A stretch of DNA of 35,160 nt. It comes from an uncultured Candidatus Saccharibacteria bacterium. GTDB taxonomy: Bacteria > Patescibacteriota > Minisyncoccia > Phycocordibacterales > PALSA-1337. The notes below the pieces were generated by a model. That model was not told where the DNA came from, did not search any database, and worked only from the letters and a program-made list of their open reading frames with translations. Location of the stretch: the NCBI GenBank assembly GCA_964593965.1, contig CAZQKU010000001.1:1-35160 (forward strand), given 5' to 3'. Below are positions 1-34,218 of this stretch, in pieces; within the stretch, counting starts at the first letter, position 1; each line of letters begins with the position of its first letter. The translations under genes were made by a program, and so were the position numbers.

Positions 1-74
1 TCCGTGCTCGTGCAGTAGTTTCGTAACACTTGAACCTTGGGTCTTGTACCCTTGCGCTCTCGTATTCTTTGCAT

Positions 75-108
75 CGCCGCCCAGCTCGACTGGGCGGCGA
101 ATTTTGTT
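75..108 (+). terminator. Rho-independent terminator of an upstream, off-window gene
   Basis: A perfect 9-bp GC-rich stem (CGCCGCCCA 75-83 / TGGGCGGCG 91-99) with a 7-nt loop, followed by AATTTTGTT. Confidence 0.5.
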
Positions 109-112
109 GCAT

Positions 113-146
113 TGAAACATTTTTCACTTTCCGCTGTACTAAAAAG
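113..146 (+). promoter_or_regulatory. ECF-type promoter P1 upstream of the sigma gene (TGAAAC-N17-GTACTAAAAAG)
   Basis: TGAAAC at 113-118, a 17-nt spacer, then GTACTAAAAAG at 136-146. The same layout recurs at 1814-1846. It resembles GAAC-type ECF promoters. Confidence 0.4.
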
Positions 147-168
147 ACAGAAGCTATATAATTGAAAA

Positions 169-801
169 ATGCCCGAAATAGACATTACTGACGAGCAAGC
201 GGCTTTGCTTGTGCAAAACGGGGATAAGGATAAATTCGGCCTTTTGATGGATCGGTACAAGGCTCGGCTTTTTCGGTATGGGCGCAAGTTCCTGGCCAAT
301 GAGGACAACATTGACGACGTCGTCCAGGACGTGTTCATCAAGGCCTACCAGAACATCCGCAGTTTCGATGTGTCGCAGAAGTTCTCGCCGTGGATATATC
401 GCATCGCTCACAACACGTACATCAACGCCATCAAGAAAATTTCCCGCGGGCCGATATATACTTTTGATTTTGACACTATCGTTTCGCACCCGGTCTATGA
501 GGATCCGCTCATCAAGGAAACCGAAGAAGTGGAGATGAAAAAAATGGTGGAAAAAGGTCTCGGCACCCTGTCGCCGAATTATCGGGAAATCGTCATTCTC
601 TACTACACCGAAGAATTGAGCTATAAAGAAATCGCCGACATTTTACGCATCCCCATAGGCACGGTCGGCATCAGGCTTAAACGGGCGAAGGAGGCGTTGA
701 AGAAAGGTTTCCTAGAAGAGTCGGCACGAAAGGAAGAAGAAAGAGAAAGCACAAGGGAAATAGAAAAGGTCGGCAGGGAAAGCGGGGAAAGAAAAAAATA
801 A
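169..801 (+). CDS. ECF-family (group 4) RNA polymerase sigma-70 factor
   Basis: 210-aa ORF. Region 2 reads DDVVQDVFIKAYQNIRSFD..FSPWIYRIAHNTYINAIKK. The region 4 HTH reads LSYKEIADILRIPIGTVGIRLKRAKEALKK. TATAAT at 157-162 lies 6 nt before the ATG. Confidence 0.9.
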   Translation: MPEIDITDEQAALLVQNGDKDKFGLLMDRYKARLFRYGRKFLANEDNIDDVVQDVFIKAYQNIRSFDVSQKFSPWIYRIAHNTYINAIKKISRGPIYTFDFDTIVSHPVYEDPLIKETEEVEMKKMVEKGLGTLSPNYREIVILYYTEELSYKEIADILRIPIGTVGIRLKRAKEALKKGFLEESARKEEERESTREIEKVGRESGERKK

Positions 802-806
802 AAAAC

Positions 807-1700
807 ATGAACAACAATAAAACACAACAGAATACTATAGAAAAAAATGTTCTCGAAAAGATACAATCGGGTGAAGTAAAAATGCGCTCGAAGACCTATT
901 TCGTACTCAAAGTAGCTCTGCTTGTCATCGTGGCTTTACTTGTTCTTGTTACGTCGGCTCTGCTTGTCAGCTTCATGATCTTTTCTCTACGGGTATCAGG
1001 ACGACTATTTCTTTTGGGTTTCGGTGAACGCGGTCTCATGGCTTTCTTTGTCACTTTTCCATGGTTTATTCTTATCGCTGATATTCTTTTTGTCATCCTC
1101 TTTGAACGTCTACTCAATCATTTCAAATTCGCCTACCGGACGCCGCTTGTCTATACGATCGGTGCGAGCGCGCTTATTATCATTTTGGCCGGCTTTGGCC
1201 TCGATCGGATCTCTTTCCACGAAACGCTTTTTCAGGAAGCGGCTGAACATCACCTCGGTCCGGTCGGTGGTCTCTATACGGATATCCGATTGCCACCGCG
1301 GCAGGAAGGGGTTTTCCGCGGTATTGTCACGAGTGTGGCCACAAATATTTCTGCTATGCCGCCGGGGTGGCCAGCCTACAATATGGGTACTTCCAGTATG
1401 GTCAGTACCAACTCTGCTGGCCCATTCATCAACGCTTTCACCATGCGTCGCTATGATGAAGATGTGGATACTGATTCTGCTACCGATACGGCCATGACAT
1501 GGTACGTCATTCTGCCGACGGGCGTATCGGTCGCTGGTTTCGTCAAGCCGGGTGATGTTGTTCTCGTAGCTGGGGATGTATTGGCGGCGAGTGGAACGGC
1601 AAGTGGAACAGTTGGTGGCAACAGTAATGGCACGAGTACTGGTAGCGGCACTATTCGCGCGTACGGCATCAGGGAAATATCAGCGGGAGATGAGCAATAA
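807..1700 (+). CDS. Polytopic membrane protein, putative cognate anti-sigma factor
   Basis: 297-aa ORF starting 6 nt after the sigma stop codon. It has several hydrophobic helices (e.g. YFVLKVALLVIVALLVLVTSALLVSFMIF) and a Ser/Thr/Gly-rich C-terminal tail. The anti-sigma role is inferred from position only; no ZAS motif was seen. Confidence 0.6.
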   Translation: MNNNKTQQNTIEKNVLEKIQSGEVKMRSKTYFVLKVALLVIVALLVLVTSALLVSFMIFSLRVSGRLFLLGFGERGLMAFFVTFPWFILIADILFVILFERLLNHFKFAYRTPLVYTIGASALIIILAGFGLDRISFHETLFQEAAEHHLGPVGGLYTDIRLPPRQEGVFRGIVTSVATNISAMPPGWPAYNMGTSSMVSTNSAGPFINAFTMRRYDEDVDTDSATDTAMTWYVILPTGVSVAGFVKPGDVVLVAGDVLAASGTASGTVGGNSNGTSTGSGTIRAYGIREISAGDEQ

Positions 1701-1813
1701 TGAGCAATAAATATCTTTTTTCATTCTCATGTAGTCAATGATTCGAAGAGTGTTCTTCAATCAAGTTCAAGTTACGAAGTAAGCTCCAACAAAATCTGCG
1801 ATAGTGAAAACAG

Positions 1814-1846
1814 TGAAATAAACTTTTTAGCGTGTGGTACTAAAAG
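1814..1846 (+). promoter_or_regulatory. ECF-type promoter P2 upstream of the flavin operon (TGAAAT-N17-GTACTAAAAG)
   Basis: TGAAAT at 1814-1819, a 17-nt spacer, then GTACTAAAAG at 1837-1846. It shares the pentamer, the spacer length and a 9-mer with P1 at 113-146. Confidence 0.45.
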
Positions 1847-1893
1847 CGTCGATTGGTTGCGGATAATTATAAAAAAAGACTATACTATGATGC

Positions 1894-2319
1894 ATGATTA
1901 AAAAATTGTTCTTGCCGTGTGTGGTGATTGTCGGCTTTATTGGTTTTGTTATCTACGGGCGGATGAAGGCGGCGCCGAGTACGGCGATAGTTCCACGTAT
2001 TTCGGTTTCTCCTACACTAGCTACGACAACCACTGGCCAATATAAAGACGGTACCTATACCGGCAGTGTGGCCGATGCGTATTATGGCAATGTTCAGGTG
2101 CAGGCGATAGTACAGAATGGCAACATCGCCGATGTTCAGTTTCTTCAATACCCGAGTGACAACGGCAATAGTGCGAATATCAGCCAGCGTTCTATGCCGC
2201 TTCTCAAAGCCGAAGCCATCAGTGCCCAAAGCGCCACTGTTGATATCATCTCCGGCGCTACCCAGACAAGTCAGGCTTTTCAACAGTCACTGACGGCGGC
2301 ATTGAATCAGGCTTCTTAG
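1894..2319 (+). CDS. FMN-binding domain protein, membrane anchored (predicted ApbE substrate)
   Basis: 141 aa. An N-terminal hydrophobic anchor (LFLPCVVIVGFIGFVIY) is followed by an FMN_bind-type domain carrying the flavinylation motif DIISGATQTS. TATACT at 1881-1886 lies 7 nt before the ATG. Confidence 0.85.
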   Translation: MIKKLFLPCVVIVGFIGFVIYGRMKAAPSTAIVPRISVSPTLATTTTGQYKDGTYTGSVADAYYGNVQVQAIVQNGNIADVQFLQYPSDNGNSANISQRSMPLLKAEAISAQSATVDIISGATQTSQAFQQSLTAALNQAS

Positions 2320-2363
2320 ATTTTAGACTAAAGACTAATGTCGCGGCAGAATAAAAAATAAAG

Positions 2364-3224
2364 ATGCGTGAAACAAAAATCATCATGGGTATGCCGGTGA
2401 CGGTGGAGATTGTTGAGAACGCCGACACTGCCGGCGTTCTTGTTGATTTTTCGAGCCTCATGCGCGAAGTCTTCGACTACTTTACCTATGTTGATGAAAA
2501 GTTCAGCACATATAAAAGTACCAGCGAAATCAGTGCTATCAATGCCGGCAAATTGGTGCTGGCTGATTACAGCGACGACATGAAAGAAATTTTTATGCTG
2601 GCGGAAAAGACAAAAAGAGAGACGGATGGATATTTTGATATTGTCAATCAGGATGGAAAATACGATCCGTCGGGTATCGTCAAAGGTTGGGCGATTTGGA
2701 ATGCGGGAAAAATTCTCCGGCGGCGCGGGGTGGAAAACTTTCTTGTTGATGCCGGTGGCGATGTACAAACAGCCGGTTTGAAAAGTGGCGATAAAAATAG
2801 CTCTGGCAAAAATAGTATAGGCGAAAAATGGAGCATCGGCATCGCCGATCCGTTTGCTAAAAATTATGGTGGTACAGTTATGACGGGTGCGCCGAGCAAA
2901 GTAGTCAACGTGATCCGTGTTAGTGGGGAAGGTGTAGCCACATCGGGAACGGCCATTCGTGGTCAGCACATTTATAATCCACATAAACGTACGTTCGACC
3001 AGAAAGATAGCCACGGCGAGACAGGTGACGGTATTTATGACATTGTCAGTCTGACCGTTATCGGTTCCAATATATATGAAGCTGATCGTTTTGCTACAGC
3101 CGCTTTTGCCATGGGGAGGCGTGGTATCGAGTTCATCGAAAATGTAGAAGGTCTCGAGGGTTACATGATTGATAAAGATGGCATGGCTATCATGACCAGC
3201 GGTTTTAAGAAATATGTTGTGTAG
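2364..3224 (+). CDS. apbE: FAD:protein FMN transferase (ApbE family)
   Basis: 286 aa with ApbE-like blocks: FSTYKSTSEISAIN, DPSGIVKGWA, LVDAGGDVQ, VATSGTA and ADRFATAAFAMG. No N-terminal signal peptide or lipobox is visible. Confidence 0.88.
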   Translation: MRETKIIMGMPVTVEIVENADTAGVLVDFSSLMREVFDYFTYVDEKFSTYKSTSEISAINAGKLVLADYSDDMKEIFMLAEKTKRETDGYFDIVNQDGKYDPSGIVKGWAIWNAGKILRRRGVENFLVDAGGDVQTAGLKSGDKNSSGKNSIGEKWSIGIADPFAKNYGGTVMTGAPSKVVNVIRVSGEGVATSGTAIRGQHIYNPHKRTFDQKDSHGETGDGIYDIVSLTVIGSNIYEADRFATAAFAMGRRGIEFIENVEGLEGYMIDKDGMAIMTSGFKKYVV

Positions 3225-3279: not shown

Positions 3280-5013
3280 ATGTCCTTCATCGACACAATC
3301 CTCAATAAGATCACCATGTACCGTTTGGCGTTGTACTATTTGATATTTCTCGTTCTGGCCGCCGCAGTGCTCGGTATGTTCGGGCATGTGTCATACGGAC
3401 CGGTGGCTATTCTTTTTTCGGCATTCTATATCACCCTCGTCTGCCTCGTGGTTAATGCCGTCTTCGCCTATTTCTTCGAGGCACCGGCCAATCCCGAATC
3501 GGTCTACATCACCGCTCTCATTCTTACCCTCATCATCGCGCCGATCCATTCGGCTACTGACATCCTATTTTTCGCTGTAGCAACGTGGGCTTCGATCTGG
3601 GCAATGGCTTCGAAGTACATTCTCGCCATCGGCAAAAAGCATGTCTTCAATCCCGCCGCTATCGCTGTGGTCATCACCGCTTTTTCGGTCGGTTTGTCGG
3701 CGAATTGGTGGGTGGGCACGGTCTGGATGTTGCCGTTCGTCGCGGTTGGTGGCTTGCTCGTGGTGCGGAAACTTCAACGTTTCAAAATGATGGGGAGTTT
3801 CGTGGCGGCCGCCCTCGTCGTCGTGATCATTCATCATCCGGCGGTGGTGACGATATGGAAAGCTCTCGCCGAGACGCCACTTATTTTCTTCGCTTGTATC
3901 ATGCTGACGGAGCCATTGACCGCGCCTTCGACGCAGAAAATACGTATCGTCTACGGTGTTTTGGTCGGCTTGCTTTTTGCGCCATTTGTGCATATCGGTT
4001 CCATATATTCGACGCCAGAGCTGGCGCTCGTTGTCGGCAACGTTTTTGCTTTTATGGTCGTAAGTCCGAAGAAAAAGTTCGTTTTGAAACTGCGCGAGAA
4101 AAAGCAAGTGGCGGCGGGGACGTTCGAGTTTTGGTTCGAGGAAGCGGGAAAAGGCGGCGCGGGGAAAGATGGAACTCGCGGCAAACTTACCAATTTTACA
4201 TTCCGACCGGGTCAATATCTCGAGTGGACGCTTGAGCCGAAATTGGGTCTCCCGGAAAAATCGGACGGTTCATCGACGGCTATTTCATTTTCATCATTTA
4301 TCGCCGGTTTCCGCCGCATCTTTTTTAATATTTTTTCAGCGGACAATCGCGGTATTCGTCACTATTTTACTATTGCTTCATCGCCAGGAGAAGCGGCAGA
4401 AAAGGGCATTGCCATCGGAGTCAAATTTTATGGACATGTTGCGGGCGGTAGCGGACAGTCGAGTACTTTTAAAAAAGTTCTCATGGCTATGAAGCCCGGC
4501 GATACGATCGTGGCGTCGGGCATGGCGGGGGATTTTTTTCTGCCGCCGAAAGTTGTCACATCGATCAAGGGAAAAGATGTACCGACGAGCGATCAGCGCA
4601 TCGTCATGATGGCCGGTGGTATTGGTATTACGCCGTTTCGCAGTATGATTGCCGATTTGCTTGACAGGAATGAGCAGAGACCCATCCGTATTATTTATTC
4701 CAATAAGACTGCCGCCGACATCGCCTACAAAGACATCTTCGACGAGGCGAAGAAACGCCTCGGCGTGAAGACTGTCTATACCCTCACCGATATCAACACG
4801 GATACCAACCCGAATGCCATTCCTGCCGGCTGGCGCGGGCGGCGCGGTTTTGTGGACGCAAAAATGATCGAGGAAGAAATACCCAGCTATATGAACTGCC
4901 TATTCTATCTCTCCGGCCCGCGGGCTATGGTGACAGCGTACGAAAATATTCTCTTTGACATGGGAGTGCCGGGATCGCAGATCAAGAAGGACTTTTTCCC
5001 GGGGTTTGTATAG
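3280..5013 (+). CDS. Fusion protein: RnfD/NqrB-like polytopic membrane domain plus ferredoxin-NADP reductase-like FAD/NAD(P)-binding module
   Basis: 577 aa. The N-terminal ~250 aa are multi-TM and carry FFACIMLTEPLTAPS (compare FMxTDPVTxP of RnfD/NqrB). The C-terminal part has RHYFTIASSP (the RxYS FAD motif), MMAGGIGITPFRSM (the GGxGxxP NAD(P) motif) and YLSGPRAMV. Confidence 0.85.
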   Translation: MSFIDTILNKITMYRLALYYLIFLVLAAAVLGMFGHVSYGPVAILFSAFYITLVCLVVNAVFAYFFEAPANPESVYITALILTLIIAPIHSATDILFFAVATWASIWAMASKYILAIGKKHVFNPAAIAVVITAFSVGLSANWWVGTVWMLPFVAVGGLLVVRKLQRFKMMGSFVAAALVVVIIHHPAVVTIWKALAETPLIFFACIMLTEPLTAPSTQKIRIVYGVLVGLLFAPFVHIGSIYSTPELALVVGNVFAFMVVSPKKKFVLKLREKKQVAAGTFEFWFEEAGKGGAGKDGTRGKLTNFTFRPGQYLEWTLEPKLGLPEKSDGSSTAISFSSFIAGFRRIFFNIFSADNRGIRHYFTIASSPGEAAEKGIAIGVKFYGHVAGGSGQSSTFKKVLMAMKPGDTIVASGMAGDFFLPPKVVTSIKGKDVPTSDQRIVMMAGGIGITPFRSMIADLLDRNEQRPIRIIYSNKTAADIAYKDIFDEAKKRLGVKTVYTLTDINTDTNPNAIPAGWRGRRGFVDAKMIEEEIPSYMNCLFYLSGPRAMVTAYENILFDMGVPGSQIKKDFFPGFV

Positions 5014-11416: not shown

Positions 11417-11499
11417 ATTTTTTATATTACATTAATAATAAAACGTAGACACATATTATTATAACGTTTTTTCGTTAAGTAGCTATGTTTTTAGTACCC

Positions 11500-11528
11500 T
11501 TGACATAATAACCTATTTGGTATACACT
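11500..11528 (+). promoter_or_regulatory. Sigma-70-like promoter for the 129-aa membrane protein gene
   Basis: TTGACA at 11500-11505, then N15 to TGgTATACA (extended -10, 11518-11526). The downstream leader ends in a GGAGG SD at 11593-11597. Confidence 0.5.
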
Positions 11529-31245: not shown

Positions 31246-31389
31246 GTAAGATGATAAAAGAAATAAATTTTTGATGAATTTGTATTAAAATCGTCTTTAT
31301 TTCGTCATACGTCGCGTGTATATGACGATATATTTTACGGTACAGACAGCGCGATAGTTATTTTTTAATTGTTATGTTATAATACTGCC

Positions 31390-34218
31390 ATGCCCCCATT
31401 TAAAAACTTCACCACCAAAGCCAAAGAAGCTATCCGACGCGCTCACGAGCTTGCTATCGAGCGCGGTCAGAATCATGTCAATCCCGTCCATCTGCTCTGT
31501 TCGCTCATCCTTCAGGAGGAGAGCATGGTCACCTCTATTCTTGACAAGCTTGAGATAGATACGATGATGTTGACCGACATTATTCTCGAGCAAATCGAGG
31601 CGCCTGAAGCGTCGAATGTTCTGTCGCCGTCGTATCAGATATATTTGACGCCGGATCTCGCCACCATTCTCGAAAATGCCGGCAAAGAAGCCATGGCTTT
31701 AAAAGATGAATTTATTTCTACCGAGCATCTTTTTGTCGGCGTCTTTGACGTGCCCGGCGCGGCGCGTGACATTCTTGCCCGGTTTAAAATCGAGAAAGCA
31801 GCCGTGCTCAATGTCATCGTCGAGCTGCGCAAATCGCCGCCATCTGACGCCGACAAGCCGAAGCGTTTCCGTACCTTGGCCAAATACACCCGTTCACTGA
31901 CGAAGCTCGCCAAAGAAAACAAACTCGACCCGGTCATCGGCCGCGACACCGAGATTCTCCGTGTCATCCAAATTCTTTCCCGCCGAACGAAAAACAATCC
32001 CATTCTTATCGGCGAAGCCGGCGTCGGCAAGACCGCCATCGTTGAAGGGCTTGCCAACAGGATGGCTCAAGGTGACGTGCCAGAGTCGCTCAAAGACAAA
32101 GAGCTTGTCTCGCTCGACCTCGGTTCGCTTATCGCCGGTACGAAATATCGCGGCGAATTTGAAGAACGCTTGAAAAATATTTTAAAAGAAATTGAACAGG
32201 CTGAGGGGAAGATCATTCTGTTCGTGGATGAGATACATACTATCGTCGGCGCAGGTGCCTCCGAGGGATCCATGGATGCTTCGAACATGCTCAAACCAGC
32301 TCTTTCTCGCGGTGAACTCAGGGCCATCGGTGCCACCACCATGCGTGAGTACCAGAAATACATAGAAAAGGATCCCGCTTTGACCCGTCGCTTCCAGCCG
32401 GTCTATGTCAGCGAGCCTTCGATCGAGGATGCTATCGCCATATTGCGCGGCCTTAAAGAAAAGTACGAGCTCTATCACGGCGTCCATATCACCGATGATG
32501 CTATCGTGGCGGCGGTCAATCTTTCCGCCCGCTACATCACCGAGCGATTCCTGCCCGACAAGACCGTGGATCTCATTGACGAAGCCGCTTCCGCTTTGAA
32601 AATTTCCCTGGAGAACATGCCGCCCCAGCTCGAAGAAACTCGTCGCAAAATCATGCGGCTTGAGATCGAGCGCGAAGCTCTGAAAAAGGACGCGGGCAAA
32701 AGTGATGATAAAGAAGGAACAAAAGAGACAAAAGAAAGTACAAAAGAAGCCAAATCCCGCACCGCCAAAATCGAGAAAGAAATCGCCGACTTGAAAGAAG
32801 GCACCTCCGAGCTTGAGCTCAAATGGAAAAATGAGAAGGATACCATCACCGACATTAAGCGTATCAAAAAAGAGCTCGAGACCCTGCGTATCGAGGCCGA
32901 GCGTGCTGAAGCCACCGCCGACCTCGCCAAAGCGGCCGAAATTCGCTATGGCAAAATTCCCGCTCTCGAGAAAGACCTCGACGGGAAGTCCAAGCGTCTG
33001 AAAAAGCTCCAGTCTTCGCGCCGCATTCTCAAAGAAGAAATTGTTGAGCAAGATATTGCTGACGTTGTTTCCCGTTGGACAGGTATTCCTGTCTCGCGCA
33101 TGCTCGAAGCAGAAGCGACGAAACTCACTCGTATGGAAGACGAGCTTAAGAGACGCATCGTCGGTCAAAATGAAGCAGTCAAGAAAATCGCCGACACGGT
33201 CAAACGTGCTCGCGCCGGCATTGCCGATCCGAACCGGCCGATTGGTTCTTTCATTTTCCTCGGCCCAACTGGCGTCGGCAAGACCGAGCTGACGAAAGCT
33301 CTCGCTGAATTTCTTTTTAACGACGAAAAATCCCTCATCCGCGTGGATATGTCGGAATTTATGGAGCGGCACAGCGTGTCGAAGCTTATCGGCGCGCCGC
33401 CCGGTTATGTCGGCTATGACGAAGGCGGCGGTTTGACCGAGCTTGTGCGTCATCGGCCTTATGCAGTGATTCTCTTTGATGAAATCGAGAAAGCCCATCC
33501 CGAAGTTTTCAACATCCTGCTCCAAGTTCTCGACAACGGCCGCCTCACCGACAGCAAAGGCCGCACCGTCAATTTCAAAAACACCGTCATCATCATGACT
33601 TCGAATATCGGCGCCCAGTACATCGAAAAAATGGAGAAAATCGGCTTCGCTAAAGAAAGCGATGCACAAACCGCCCAGATTGCAAACTATGAAGAAACCA
33701 AAAGTCGTGTCATGACGTCGCTCAAAGATTATTTCCGGCCGGAGTTCCTGAACCGCGTTGACGACATCATCATCTTCGATATTTTGAACAAAGAATCCAT
33801 CGCCAAAATCGTGGCCATTCAAGTGGACGCCGTTATCGAGCGTCTGCGCGCCAAAGATATTCATCTTATTGTCCAGCCTGAAGTCCTGGCTTACCTCGCC
33901 GAGCAAGGTTACAATCCGCACTATGGCGCCCGACCGCTCAAGCGTCTCATTCAGAATAAAATCCTTACACCGGTGGCGGGGCTTATGATTTCTCAGGGGG
34001 TAATAAAAGGCGGCACTATTACTGTCGGCTTGAAGGATTTGAAGCCGCTCTCGGGAGCGACAACGACGGCGGGGACAGCCGCAGGGAAAAACGGTAAGAA
34101 TCTATCCGGATCAACCGAGCGCGATTTCACTTTCGACGTCAAGAAAAAGAAAAAAGCCGATTCTGCTGTCGGTAAAGAGAGTCCGATCATTATCCGTACC
34201 GTCGATCTCCAGAATTAA
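31390..34218 (+). CDS. clpB: ATP-dependent chaperone/disaggregase ClpB
   Basis: I chose the ATG at 31390 (TATAAT at 31378-31383 lies 6 nt upstream) rather than the TTG at 31369. Seen: the Clp_N domain, NBD1 ([16 protein letters not shown]), a long coiled-coil M-domain, NBD2 ([19 protein letters not shown]) and a ~75-aa Gly/Thr/Lys-rich C-terminal extension. Confidence 0.95.

What the first reader, a model, noticed from the sequence alone, without database searches (positions are those of the whole stretch)
113..1846. Same ECF-type promoter motif precedes the sigma gene and the flavin-redox operon
TGAAAC (113-118), N17, GTACTAAAAAG (136-146) lies upstream of the ECF sigma gene. TGAAAT (1814-1819), N17, GTACTAAAAG (1837-1846) lies about 45 nt upstream of the FMN-binding/ApbE/RnfD-FNR genes. 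The two sites share the -35-like pentamer, an identical spacer length and the 9-mer GTACTAAAA. The layout resembles ECF promoters such as B. subtilis SigW (TGAAAC-N16-CGTA), and ECF sigma factors are usually autoregulated. Each site also has a second, housekeeping-type TATAAT/TATACT box right at its ATG, so the dual-promoter layout is parallel. This links a signal-responsive sigma/anti-sigma pair directly to a flavinylated electron-transfer module. A weaker third copy on the minus strand (GTACTAAAAA at 11488-11497, with CCAAAT as its -35) precedes the 124-aa gene.
Basis: partly seen in the sequence, partly recalled or inferred. Interest (0 to 1): 0.62.

Follow-up and report, generated by a model that had tools for sequence, protein, structure and literature searches.

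The report
Self-regulating ECF sigma promoter pair
Two copies of a conserved ECF-sigma promoter (TGAAAY-N17-GTAnTA) sit before a SigW-like sigma gene and before the adjacent flavin electron-transfer operon in a tiny Patescibacteria genome; this is an ordinary kind of autoregulated stress circuit, newly defined for this poorly understood bacterial group.

Summary
TGAAAC-N17-GTACTA (113-141) and TGAAAT-N17-GTACTA (1814-1842) are the only two full matches in the 791-kb draft genome.

A weight matrix built only from relatives ranks them first and second of all positions in the genome. The same bipartite motif lies upstream of the orthologous sigma gene in 21/35 Parcubacteria loci and in 17/25 independent ones. 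It is absent from 55 unrelated ECF loci.

A second copy precedes the FMN_bind/ApbE/RnfD-FNR operon in most relatives that keep this synteny. In one close relative it moved with that operon when another gene was inserted.

Two wetland metatranscriptomes show FMN_bind RNA. One RNA piece reaches 1873, which is upstream of the TATACT box.

The TATAAT/TATACT boxes next to the ATGs are real. They reflect a genome-wide leaderless-mRNA layout.

Best reading: a SigW-like ECF sigma autoregulates its own operon and drives the neighbouring flavin module. clpB may be a further target.

Three points fail or stay open:
- The "anti-sigma" label rests on gene position only.
- No transcription start has been mapped.

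This is a new member of a known kind, of moderate interest.

The parts
74..100 (+). Intrinsic terminator-like hairpin (11 pairs, 9 GC) with a T tract. It shields the sigma operon from upstream transcription.
113..141 (+). P1, the ECF-type promoter of the sigma operon. The -35 is TGAAAC (113-118), the spacer is 17 nt, and the -10 is GTACTA (136-141). The predicted start is near 147-150.
   Evidence: 24.6 bits, best site in the genome; conserved in relatives
157..162 (+). TATAAT box 6 nt before the sigma ATG (position -12). This is a housekeeping-type -10 for a leaderless mRNA.
   Evidence: genome-wide peak at -12
169..801 (+). ECF (group 4) sigma factor of 210 aa. It has sigma-2 and sigma-4 domains only. 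Its closest named family is SigW.
807..1700 (+). Conserved partner membrane protein of 297 aa and the presumed anti-sigma factor. It has an N-terminal cytoplasmic helix, three transmembrane helices and a C-terminal beta-barrel (OB/DUF5666-like) domain.
   Evidence: adjacent to the sigma gene in all 35 loci of set 1 and 23 of 25 of set 2; no family hit; model; hhalign to DUF5666-type proteins
1814..1842 (+). P2, the ECF-type promoter of the flavin operon. The -35 is TGAAAT (1814-1819), the spacer is 17 nt, and the -10 is GTACTA (1837-1842). The predicted start is near 1848-1851.
   Evidence: 22.8 bits, second-best site in the genome; conserved before FMN_bind in relatives; RNA reaches 1873
1854..1863 (+). 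TGGTTGCGGA block in the predicted P2 leader. It is conserved in close relatives, where a hairpin of variable sequence precedes it. Its function is unknown.
1881..1886 (+). TATACT box 7 nt before the FMN_bind ATG (position -13). This is a housekeeping-type -10 for a leaderless mRNA.
1894..2319 (+). Membrane-anchored FMN_bind protein. It is the gene best represented in the two metatranscriptomes.
2364..3224 (+). ApbE flavin transferase.
3280..5013 (+). Fusion of an RnfD/NqrB-like membrane domain with an NqrF-like NAD-binding domain. This is the signature protein of the 'NQR/RNF-like' flavinylation system.
   Evidence: definition in PMC8238504
31259..31287 (+). Candidate third promoter, AGAAAT-N17-GTATTA, in the intergenic region upstream of clpB. 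It is the third-best matrix hit in the genome (20.6 bits).
   Evidence: conserved only in G002 and G073 among 30 relatives
31390..34218 (+). ClpB chaperone gene, a possible extra regulon member. It has its own TATAAT at -12.
11489..11520 (-). It is rejected as a site.
   Evidence: matrix score -2.3

Best explanation
P1 (113-141) and P2 (1814-1842) are promoters read by the ECF sigma factor encoded at 169-801.

Inferred mechanism:
- A weak housekeeping promoter has its -10 box six nt before the ATG. It gives a leaderless mRNA and a basal amount of sigma and of its membrane partner.
- The partner probably holds the sigma inactive at the membrane.
- An extracytoplasmic signal, sensed through the partner's outer beta-barrel domain, releases the sigma.
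- Free sigma then directs RNA polymerase to P1, giving positive feedback on its own operon.
- It also directs polymerase to P2, giving a leadered mRNA for the FMN_bind/ApbE/RnfD-FNR module. That module moves electrons from NAD(P)H to an extracytoplasmic flavoprotein.
- In this lineage clpB (promoter candidate at 31259-31287) may be a third target.

Shown here:
- The motif is unique in the genome and conserved in relatives.
- It is tied to this sigma orthologue group.
- The sigma locus and the flavin module are syntenic across many families.
- RNA extends upstream of the TATACT box.

Inferred, not shown:
- Recognition of the sites by this sigma.
- The anti-sigma role of the partner.
- The nature of the signal.
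For: 1. Uniqueness. The only two genome-wide matches are these sites. They are the top two hits of a matrix trained without the window.

2. Conservation.
- Sites matching at least 11 of 12 core positions occur upstream of the sigma gene in 21/35 orthologous loci. Density is 3.3 per kb there against 0.07-0.12 per kb elsewhere.
- Positions that were not used to select sites are also conserved: A after the -35 in 41/46 sites and T before GTA in 37/46.

3. Independent set.
- 17/25 further Parcubacteria loci have the upstream site and 13/25 have the second site.
- None of 55 non-CPR ECF loci has it (Fisher p = 1e-11). The two sets share no sequence at 95% identity or more.

4. Footprint in close relatives. 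The hexamers are kept while the spacers have diverged in L220 and L222.

5. Link to the flavin operon.
- The RnfD-FNR gene lies next to the sigma locus in 11 of the 17 sigma-bearing genomes that have it.
- A site follows the partner gene in 8 of those 11 loci, as it does in the window.
- In L220 a DUF2339 gene is inserted after the partner gene, and P2 stays directly before FMN_bind.
- One unlinked operon (G377) also has a 12/12 core match.

6. Sigma identity. The protein passes TIGR02937 (ECF) at 99 bits against a cut-off of 43. Its best named hit is SigW. SigW promoters are TGAAAC/CGTA (PMC5758882).

7. RNA.
- Metatranscriptome X4 holds pieces at 238-388 and at 1873-2359. X6 holds one at 2120-2275.
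- Only 4 other pieces map to the remaining 30 kb of the window.
- The piece that starts at 1873 lies upstream of the TATACT box (1881). At least some FMN_bind mRNA is therefore leadered, as expected from P2.
Against: - No transcription start has been mapped. The RNA evidence consists of a few read-length contigs and would also fit read-through from P1.
- About a third of orthologous loci lack a high-scoring upstream site. Two syntenic loci (G182, G460) lack the second site.
- The genome has five sigma-70-family genes, including a second small one on contig C22, so the assignment to this sigma is by association.
- The partner protein matches no known anti-sigma family.
- In most relatives the -35 is TGAAAT rather than the AAC-containing form typical of ECF promoters.
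Confidence: 0.8

Rival explanations
1. The bipartite motif is functional but is read by another factor. Candidates are the second small sigma on contig C22 or a dimeric DNA-binding regulator that happens to be linked to this locus.
For: The genome holds five sigma-70-family genes. The C22 sigma has TGAAAT-N17-GTTATG upstream of it. No binding experiment exists.
Against: The motif follows this sigma orthologue in 38 of 60 loci and is absent from 55 other ECF loci. The two half-sites are not symmetrical. The fixed 17±1 nt spacing and the sequences match a SigW-type promoter.
Confidence: 0.08
2. P2 is real but minor. The flavin operon is expressed mainly from its leaderless housekeeping promoter (TATACT 1881-1886) or by read-through from P1. 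Under this reading the ECF link has little physiological weight.
For: TATACT sits at the genome-wide leaderless position. No terminator separates the partner gene from FMN_bind. Unlinked flavin operons in G452, G435 and G320 lack the motif.
Against: An RNA piece starts at 1873, upstream of TATACT, and no RNA was seen over 389-1872. P2 is conserved before FMN_bind and moved with it in L220.
Confidence: 0.1
3. The similarity of the two sites is chance, or a leftover of a local duplication, and has no function.
For: The 9-mer GTACTAAAA is not enriched genome-wide.
Against: The hexamers are conserved while the spacers diverge across dozens of genomes from many families. Shuffles expect 0.18 matches and 4 are found.
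Confidence: 0.02

Closest known systems
Bacillus subtilis SigW (ECF30-type) and its autoregulated sigW-rsiW promoter
   Same: The sigma has only sigma-2 and sigma-4 domains, and its best family hit is SigW. The promoter, TGAAAY-N16-TGTAnTA, closely resembles TGAAAC-N16-CGTA (PMC5758882), including the A/T-rich start of the spacer. The sigma gene sits directly before a membrane partner gene and is preceded by its own promoter.
   Different: The score is below the SigW equivalog cut-off (124 against 209 bits). In most relatives the -35 ends in T rather than C. The first base of the -10 is T rather than C. The partner has no zinc-binding anti-sigma domain; it has three transmembrane helices and an OB-like outer domain. 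The regulon is tiny, with 2-4 sites.
NQR/RNF-like flavinylation system (Meheust et al. 2021, eLife, PMC8238504)
   Same: The cluster holds an FMN_bind protein, ApbE and a protein with an N-terminal NqrB/RnfD domain and a C-terminal NqrF-type NAD-binding domain. This is exactly the paper's definition. The paper reports such clusters mainly in Actinobacteria and CPR.
   Different: That paper does not mention sigma factors: 'sigma' occurs 0 times in its text. The ECF-promoter link shown here is an addition.
Dual-promoter ECF operons such as B. subtilis sigM and sigX (a housekeeping promoter plus an autoregulatory one; from general knowledge, not checked here)
   Same: A basal housekeeping-type promoter lies close to the gene, with an ECF promoter upstream of it.
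   Different: Here the basal promoter would give a leaderless mRNA, which is the genome's general habit.

Membership tests
ECF (group 4) sigma-70 factors | Only sigma-2 and sigma-4 domains are present; the protein is about 200 aa | tested here: met
   Pfam finds Sigma70_r2 and Sigma70_r4_2 only, in a 210-aa protein
ECF (group 4) sigma-70 factors | Passes the curated ECF superfamily model TIGR02937 | tested here: met
   99.4 bits against a cut-off of 42.9
ECF (group 4) sigma-70 factors | Cognate anti-sigma factor encoded next to the sigma gene | tested here: inconclusive
   The partner gene is adjacent in all 35 loci of set 1 and 23 of 25 of set 2. It has no known anti-sigma domain and no structural match.
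ECF (group 4) sigma-70 factors | Conserved bipartite promoter upstream of its own gene (autoregulation) | tested here: met
   Met by sequence: 21/35 and 17/25 orthologous loci against 0/55 controls. Transcription itself was not tested.
ECF (group 4) sigma-70 factors | The sigma directs transcription from the motif | not testable with these tools
   Needs in vitro transcription or reporter assays
SigW orthologues (NF007223 / TIGR02948) | Score above the equivalog cut-off | tested here: not met
   124 against 209 bits, and 120 against 243 bits
SigW orthologues (NF007223 / TIGR02948) | RsiW-type zinc-binding anti-sigma partner | tested here: not met
   No zf-HC2 or other anti-sigma family hit in the partner
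NQR/RNF-like flavinylation system (PMC8238504) | One protein with N-terminal PF03116 and C-terminal PF00175, in a cluster with flavinylation genes | tested here: met
   The protein at 3280-5013 has both domains. FMN_bind and ApbE lie directly upstream. The definition was read.
Leaderless housekeeping promoters | A -10 box whose 3' end lies about 6-7 nt before the start codon, as a genome-wide habit | tested here: met
   TATAAT-like hexamers peak at -12: 60 of 680 crude ORFs against about 10-25 at neighbouring positions. Shine-Dalgarno-like words are rare, at 47/680. The sigma gene is at -12, FMN_bind at -13 and clpB at -12.

The most novel reading that the evidence does not exclude
Parcubacteria may carry a compact, order-wide ECF circuit.

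Its proposed parts:
- a SigW-like sigma;
- a previously unclassified three-helix membrane partner, whose outer OB/DUF5666-like domain is related to the secreted proteins the circuit induces;
- a promoter 'slot' next to the locus that holds interchangeable extracytoplasmic cargo.

The cargo is often the NAD(P)H-driven flavin electron-export module. If so, these ultra-small, probably host-attached cells switch on extracellular redox chemistry in response to a surface signal. The induced secreted proteins could feed back on the sensor.
Probability: 0.25. Interest if true: 0.6.

Novelty: new member of a known kind. Interest (0 to 1): 0.45.

Why it matters
I found nothing on gene regulation by ECF sigma factors in Patescibacteria/CPR in the paper library searched here.

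This result gives three things:
- a concrete sigma-promoter pair (TGAAAT-N17-GTAnTA) conserved across many families of an order;
- a regulon small enough to list;
- a regulatory link to the NQR/RNF-like flavinylated electron-transfer module, whose function is still unknown.

The link predicts that the module is an inducible response to an extracytoplasmic cue and not a housekeeping function. The sigma, its partner and the promoters are short and self-contained. They can therefore be tested in E. coli or B. subtilis without growing the organism.

Tried and rejected
- The 9-mer GTACTAAAA as the functional unit: it is not enriched, and its A tail is conserved only in the closest relatives.
- A standard sigma-70 promoter reading of the motif: the spacing would be about 19 nt. 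A simple sigma-70 scan finds nothing at either site.
- A known RNA element, such as an FMN riboswitch, in the leaders: Rfam finds none in 1-2400.
- A known anti-sigma fold for the partner: Foldseek against the PDB gives only weak OB-fold hits, E ≥ 0.03.
- clpB as a general target: the site is present in only 2 of 30 relatives besides the window.
- TTGCGG (1857-1862) as a conserved -35 for the TATACT box: the spacing is not kept in G002.
- The ECF classification paper (PMC7826278) has no mention of CPR groups and no supplement is held. Assignment to a numbered ECF group was therefore not possible.
Full report
**1. The observation**

The window reads as the finder said.
- TGAAAC lies at 113-118, then 17 nt, then GTACTAAAAAG at 136-146. 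This is 23 nt before the ATG of a 210-aa sigma gene (169-801).
- TGAAAT lies at 1814-1819, then 17 nt, then GTACTAAAAG at 1837-1846. This is 48 nt before the ATG of an FMN_bind gene (1894-2319).
- ApbE (2364-3224) and an RnfD-like/NAD-binding fusion (3280-5013) follow the FMN_bind gene (Pfam).

The whole genome held for this window is a draft of 791 kb in 105 contigs with 46% G+C. The full pattern TGAAAY-N17-GTACTAAAA occurs twice on both strands, and both occurrences are these sites. Allowing two mismatches, the window has 4 matches against 0.18 expected from shuffles. The 9-mer GTACTAAAA alone is not enriched: 6 copies are found and about 9 are expected. The signal therefore lies in the bipartite arrangement and not in the 9-mer.

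**2. Conservation upstream of the sigma gene**

Orthologues of the sigma gene (E < 1e-42) occur in 53 of 401 sampled genomes of the same order, spread over many families. They also occur in same-genus and same-family genomes. Record titles of relatives place the group in Patescibacteria/Parcubacteria.

In all 35 loci examined, the sigma gene is followed by a homologue of the 297-aa membrane protein at 807-1700.

I scored the core pattern TGAAAY-N16-18-GTA[A/C]TA:
- 21 of 35 loci have at least 11 of 12 matches within 175 nt upstream of the sigma gene.
- The density is 3.3 per kb there. It is 0.12 per kb on the same strand elsewhere and 0.07 per kb on the other strand.
- Positions that played no part in selecting sites are also conserved. 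A follows the -35 in 41 of 46 sites, and T precedes GTA in 37 of 46.
- The consensus is TGAAATAaa-N13-(g/t)T-GTAnTA.

A weight matrix made from these relatives only, and scanned over both strands of the window's own genome, puts the two sites of the finding first and second (24.6 and 22.8 bits). Only 5 positions in the genome score 18 or more.

**3. Independent check and negative control**

A separate scan of one genome per species gave 25 more Parcubacteria loci. None overlaps the first set at 95% identity or more.
- 17 of the 25 have a site of at least 14 bits within 200 nt upstream of the sigma gene.
- 13 of the 25 have a second site just after the partner gene.
- The 55 non-CPR ECF loci returned by the same scan (320 kb) have no upstream site, and no site at all on the sigma strand. 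Fisher p = 1e-11.

The motif is therefore specific to this orthologue group.

Two much closer relatives came from metagenome contigs (partner protein 73-76% identical). In these, both hexamers of P1 and P2 are kept while the 17-nt spacers have diverged. This is a classical footprint.

**4. The link to the flavin operon**

The three-gene module fits the published definition of the 'NQR/RNF-like' flavinylation system. That system needs a protein with an N-terminal NqrB/RnfD domain and a C-terminal NqrF-type NAD-binding domain, in a cluster with flavinylation genes. It is reported mainly from Actinobacteria and CPR (PMC8238504).
- Of 57 genomes with the sigma orthologue, 17 have the RnfD-FNR fusion.
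- In 11 of those 17 it lies on the same contig next to the sigma locus. In 10 of the 11 the order is the same as in the window.
- A site follows the partner gene in G297, G340, G343, G302, G464 and G219. With an 18-nt spacer it does so in G506 and, weakly, in G498. Except in G498, the FMN_bind/ApbE genes follow it directly.
- No such site was found in G182 or G460.

The most telling case is relative L220. A DUF2339 gene is inserted between the partner gene and the flavin operon, and P2 (TGAAAT-N17-GTACTAAAAG) stays immediately before FMN_bind. One flavin operon that is unlinked from the sigma locus (G377) also has a 12/12 core match upstream. Three others do not.

Three same-genus genomes lack the flavin module entirely. 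Two of them (G002, G003) still keep the second promoter after the partner gene, now in front of other genes.

Across all loci with a second site, the first downstream gene is:
- FMN_bind, or ApbE in one case, in 8 of 29;
- in most of the others, a small secreted protein. These are helix-hairpin-repeat, DUF2680-like or DUF5666 proteins (family hits).

In many relatives a further copy of the motif precedes a DUF5666 secreted protein gene just upstream of the sigma gene.

The regulon is therefore small, extracytoplasmic in character and variable. The flavin module is a frequent member and the member present in this genome.

**5. What kind of sigma and promoter**

The protein has sigma-2 and sigma-4 domains only. 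It passes the ECF superfamily model (99 bits against a cut-off of 43). Its best named matches are the SigW models, but below their cut-offs.

B. subtilis SigW promoters have -35 TGAAAC and -10 CGTA (PMC5758882). The motif here reads TGAAAY-N16-TGTAnTA. The finder's analogy is apt in that respect. It works like a SigW-type promoter, but the sigma is not a SigW orthologue.

The genome has five sigma-70-family genes, one of them a second small sigma on contig C22. The assignment of the motif to the adjacent sigma therefore rests on the strong co-occurrence described above.

**6. The boxes at the start codons**

TATAAT (157-162) and TATACT (1881-1886) lie 6 and 7 nt before their ATGs. Across the genome, TATAAT-like hexamers show a sharp peak starting at -12 from the start codon: 60 of 680 crude ORFs, against about 10-25 at neighbouring positions. 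Shine-Dalgarno-like words are rare, at 47 of 680.

This is the signature of leaderless mRNAs made from housekeeping promoters. The dual layout is real. A basal leaderless promoter lies at the gene, and an ECF promoter further upstream would give a short leader. A basal promoter is what an autoregulated sigma needs in order to start the loop.

**7. RNA evidence**

Two wetland metatranscriptomes contain exact matches.
- Run X4 has pieces at 238-388 (sigma) and at 1873-2024, 2035-2185 and 2194-2359 (FMN_bind).
- Run X6 has one piece, at 2120-2275.
- Over the other 30 kb of the window, X4 has four pieces and X6 has none.

FMN_bind is thus the best-represented gene of the window in both runs. The piece that begins at 1873 lies upstream of the TATACT box. 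At least some FMN_bind RNA is therefore leadered, as P2 predicts (start expected near 1849).

These are read-length contigs and not mapped 5' ends. Read-through from P1 cannot be excluded, although nothing was seen over 389-1872. A strong terminator at 74-100 shields P1 from upstream, and no terminator separates the partner gene from P2.

**8. The partner protein**

It has no hit in Pfam or NCBIfam, and its homologues are all labelled hypothetical. An AlphaFold model (mean pLDDT 74) shows:
- a short N-terminal helix (residues 5-20);
- three long membrane helices;
- a C-terminal five-strand beta domain.

Foldseek against the PDB finds only weak OB-fold similarities. A profile comparison links the C-terminal domain to the DUF5666-type repeats of the secreted proteins that carry the same promoter in relatives (probability 70%, E = 4e-5). 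Calling this protein an anti-sigma factor is a reasonable inference from position, but it is untested.

**9. Other candidate sites**
- The third-best matrix hit in the genome (20.6 bits) is AGAAAT-N17-GTATTA at 31259-31287. It lies in the intergenic region before clpB (31390-34218).
- A matching site precedes clpB in G002 (14.8 bits) and G073 (26.2 bits), but not in 28 other relatives. It is at most a lineage-limited addition.
- The fourth hit (C46:6846, minus strand, 18.7 bits) precedes a 30-aa cysteine-rich ORF.
- The finder's third copy (11489-11520, minus strand) lacks the near-invariant TG of the -35 and the T before GTA. It scores -2.3 and is not supported.

**10. Verdict**

In kind, this is an ordinary autoregulated ECF circuit. 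Three things are new:
- the promoter definition for a widespread Parcubacteria sigma group;
- its uncharacterised partner protein;
- its link to the NQR/RNF-like flavin module.

No paper in the held library describes this. Direct proof of sigma-dependent transcription is still missing.

Noticed in passing
whole genome G000 (e.g. window 157-162, 1881-1886, 31378-31383): TATAAT-like boxes peak sharply at -12 from start codons (60 of 680 crude ORFs), and Shine-Dalgarno-like words are rare (47 of 680). The genome appears to use leaderless mRNAs widely.
   Followed up: partly
window 1854-1863; also G002 (L021:2718), G003 (L023:2950), L220 about 7530, L222 about 5975; G000 C10:7162 (-): The 10-mer TGGTTGCGGA lies in the predicted P2 leader in the window and in close relatives. 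In the relatives a hairpin whose stem sequence differs between genomes precedes it; that hairpin is missing in the window. A second exact copy lies upstream of a LexA-like gene on contig C10. The function is unknown and there is no Rfam hit.
   Followed up: partly
window 31259-31328: A candidate ECF-type site (AGAAAT-N17-GTATTA) lies before clpB. It is followed by an inverted repeat, TCGTCATA-N11-TATGACGA (about 31302-31328), which could be an operator.
   Followed up: partly
G000 contig C46, about 6846-6680 (-): The fourth-best motif hit (TGAAAT-N17-GTAATA) precedes a 30-aa cysteine-rich ORF (MADPKICSECKHEHKEPNGTCSCGCEVSKK).
   Followed up: no
G000 contig C22:271-793 (-): A second small ECF-like sigma gene (about 172 aa) has TGAAAT-N17-GTTATG about 95 nt upstream. 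This is the same -35 with a different -10.
   Followed up: no
window 807-1700, C-terminal third; relatives' genes upstream of sigma (e.g. L028:700-1404): The outer domain of the partner protein appears related to the DUF5666 repeats of secreted proteins that carry the same promoter in relatives (hhalign probability 70%, E = 4e-5). This suggests possible feedback between product and sensor.
   Followed up: partly
window 1873-2359: FMN_bind is the best-represented gene of the 35-kb window in two independent wetland metatranscriptomes. No RNA pieces were found over ApbE or RnfD-FNR.
   Followed up: partly
L220:5664-7433: In a close relative a DUF2339 membrane protein gene is inserted between the partner gene and the P2-FMN_bind unit. 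Three same-genus genomes (G001-G003) have lost the flavin module altogether.
   Followed up: partly
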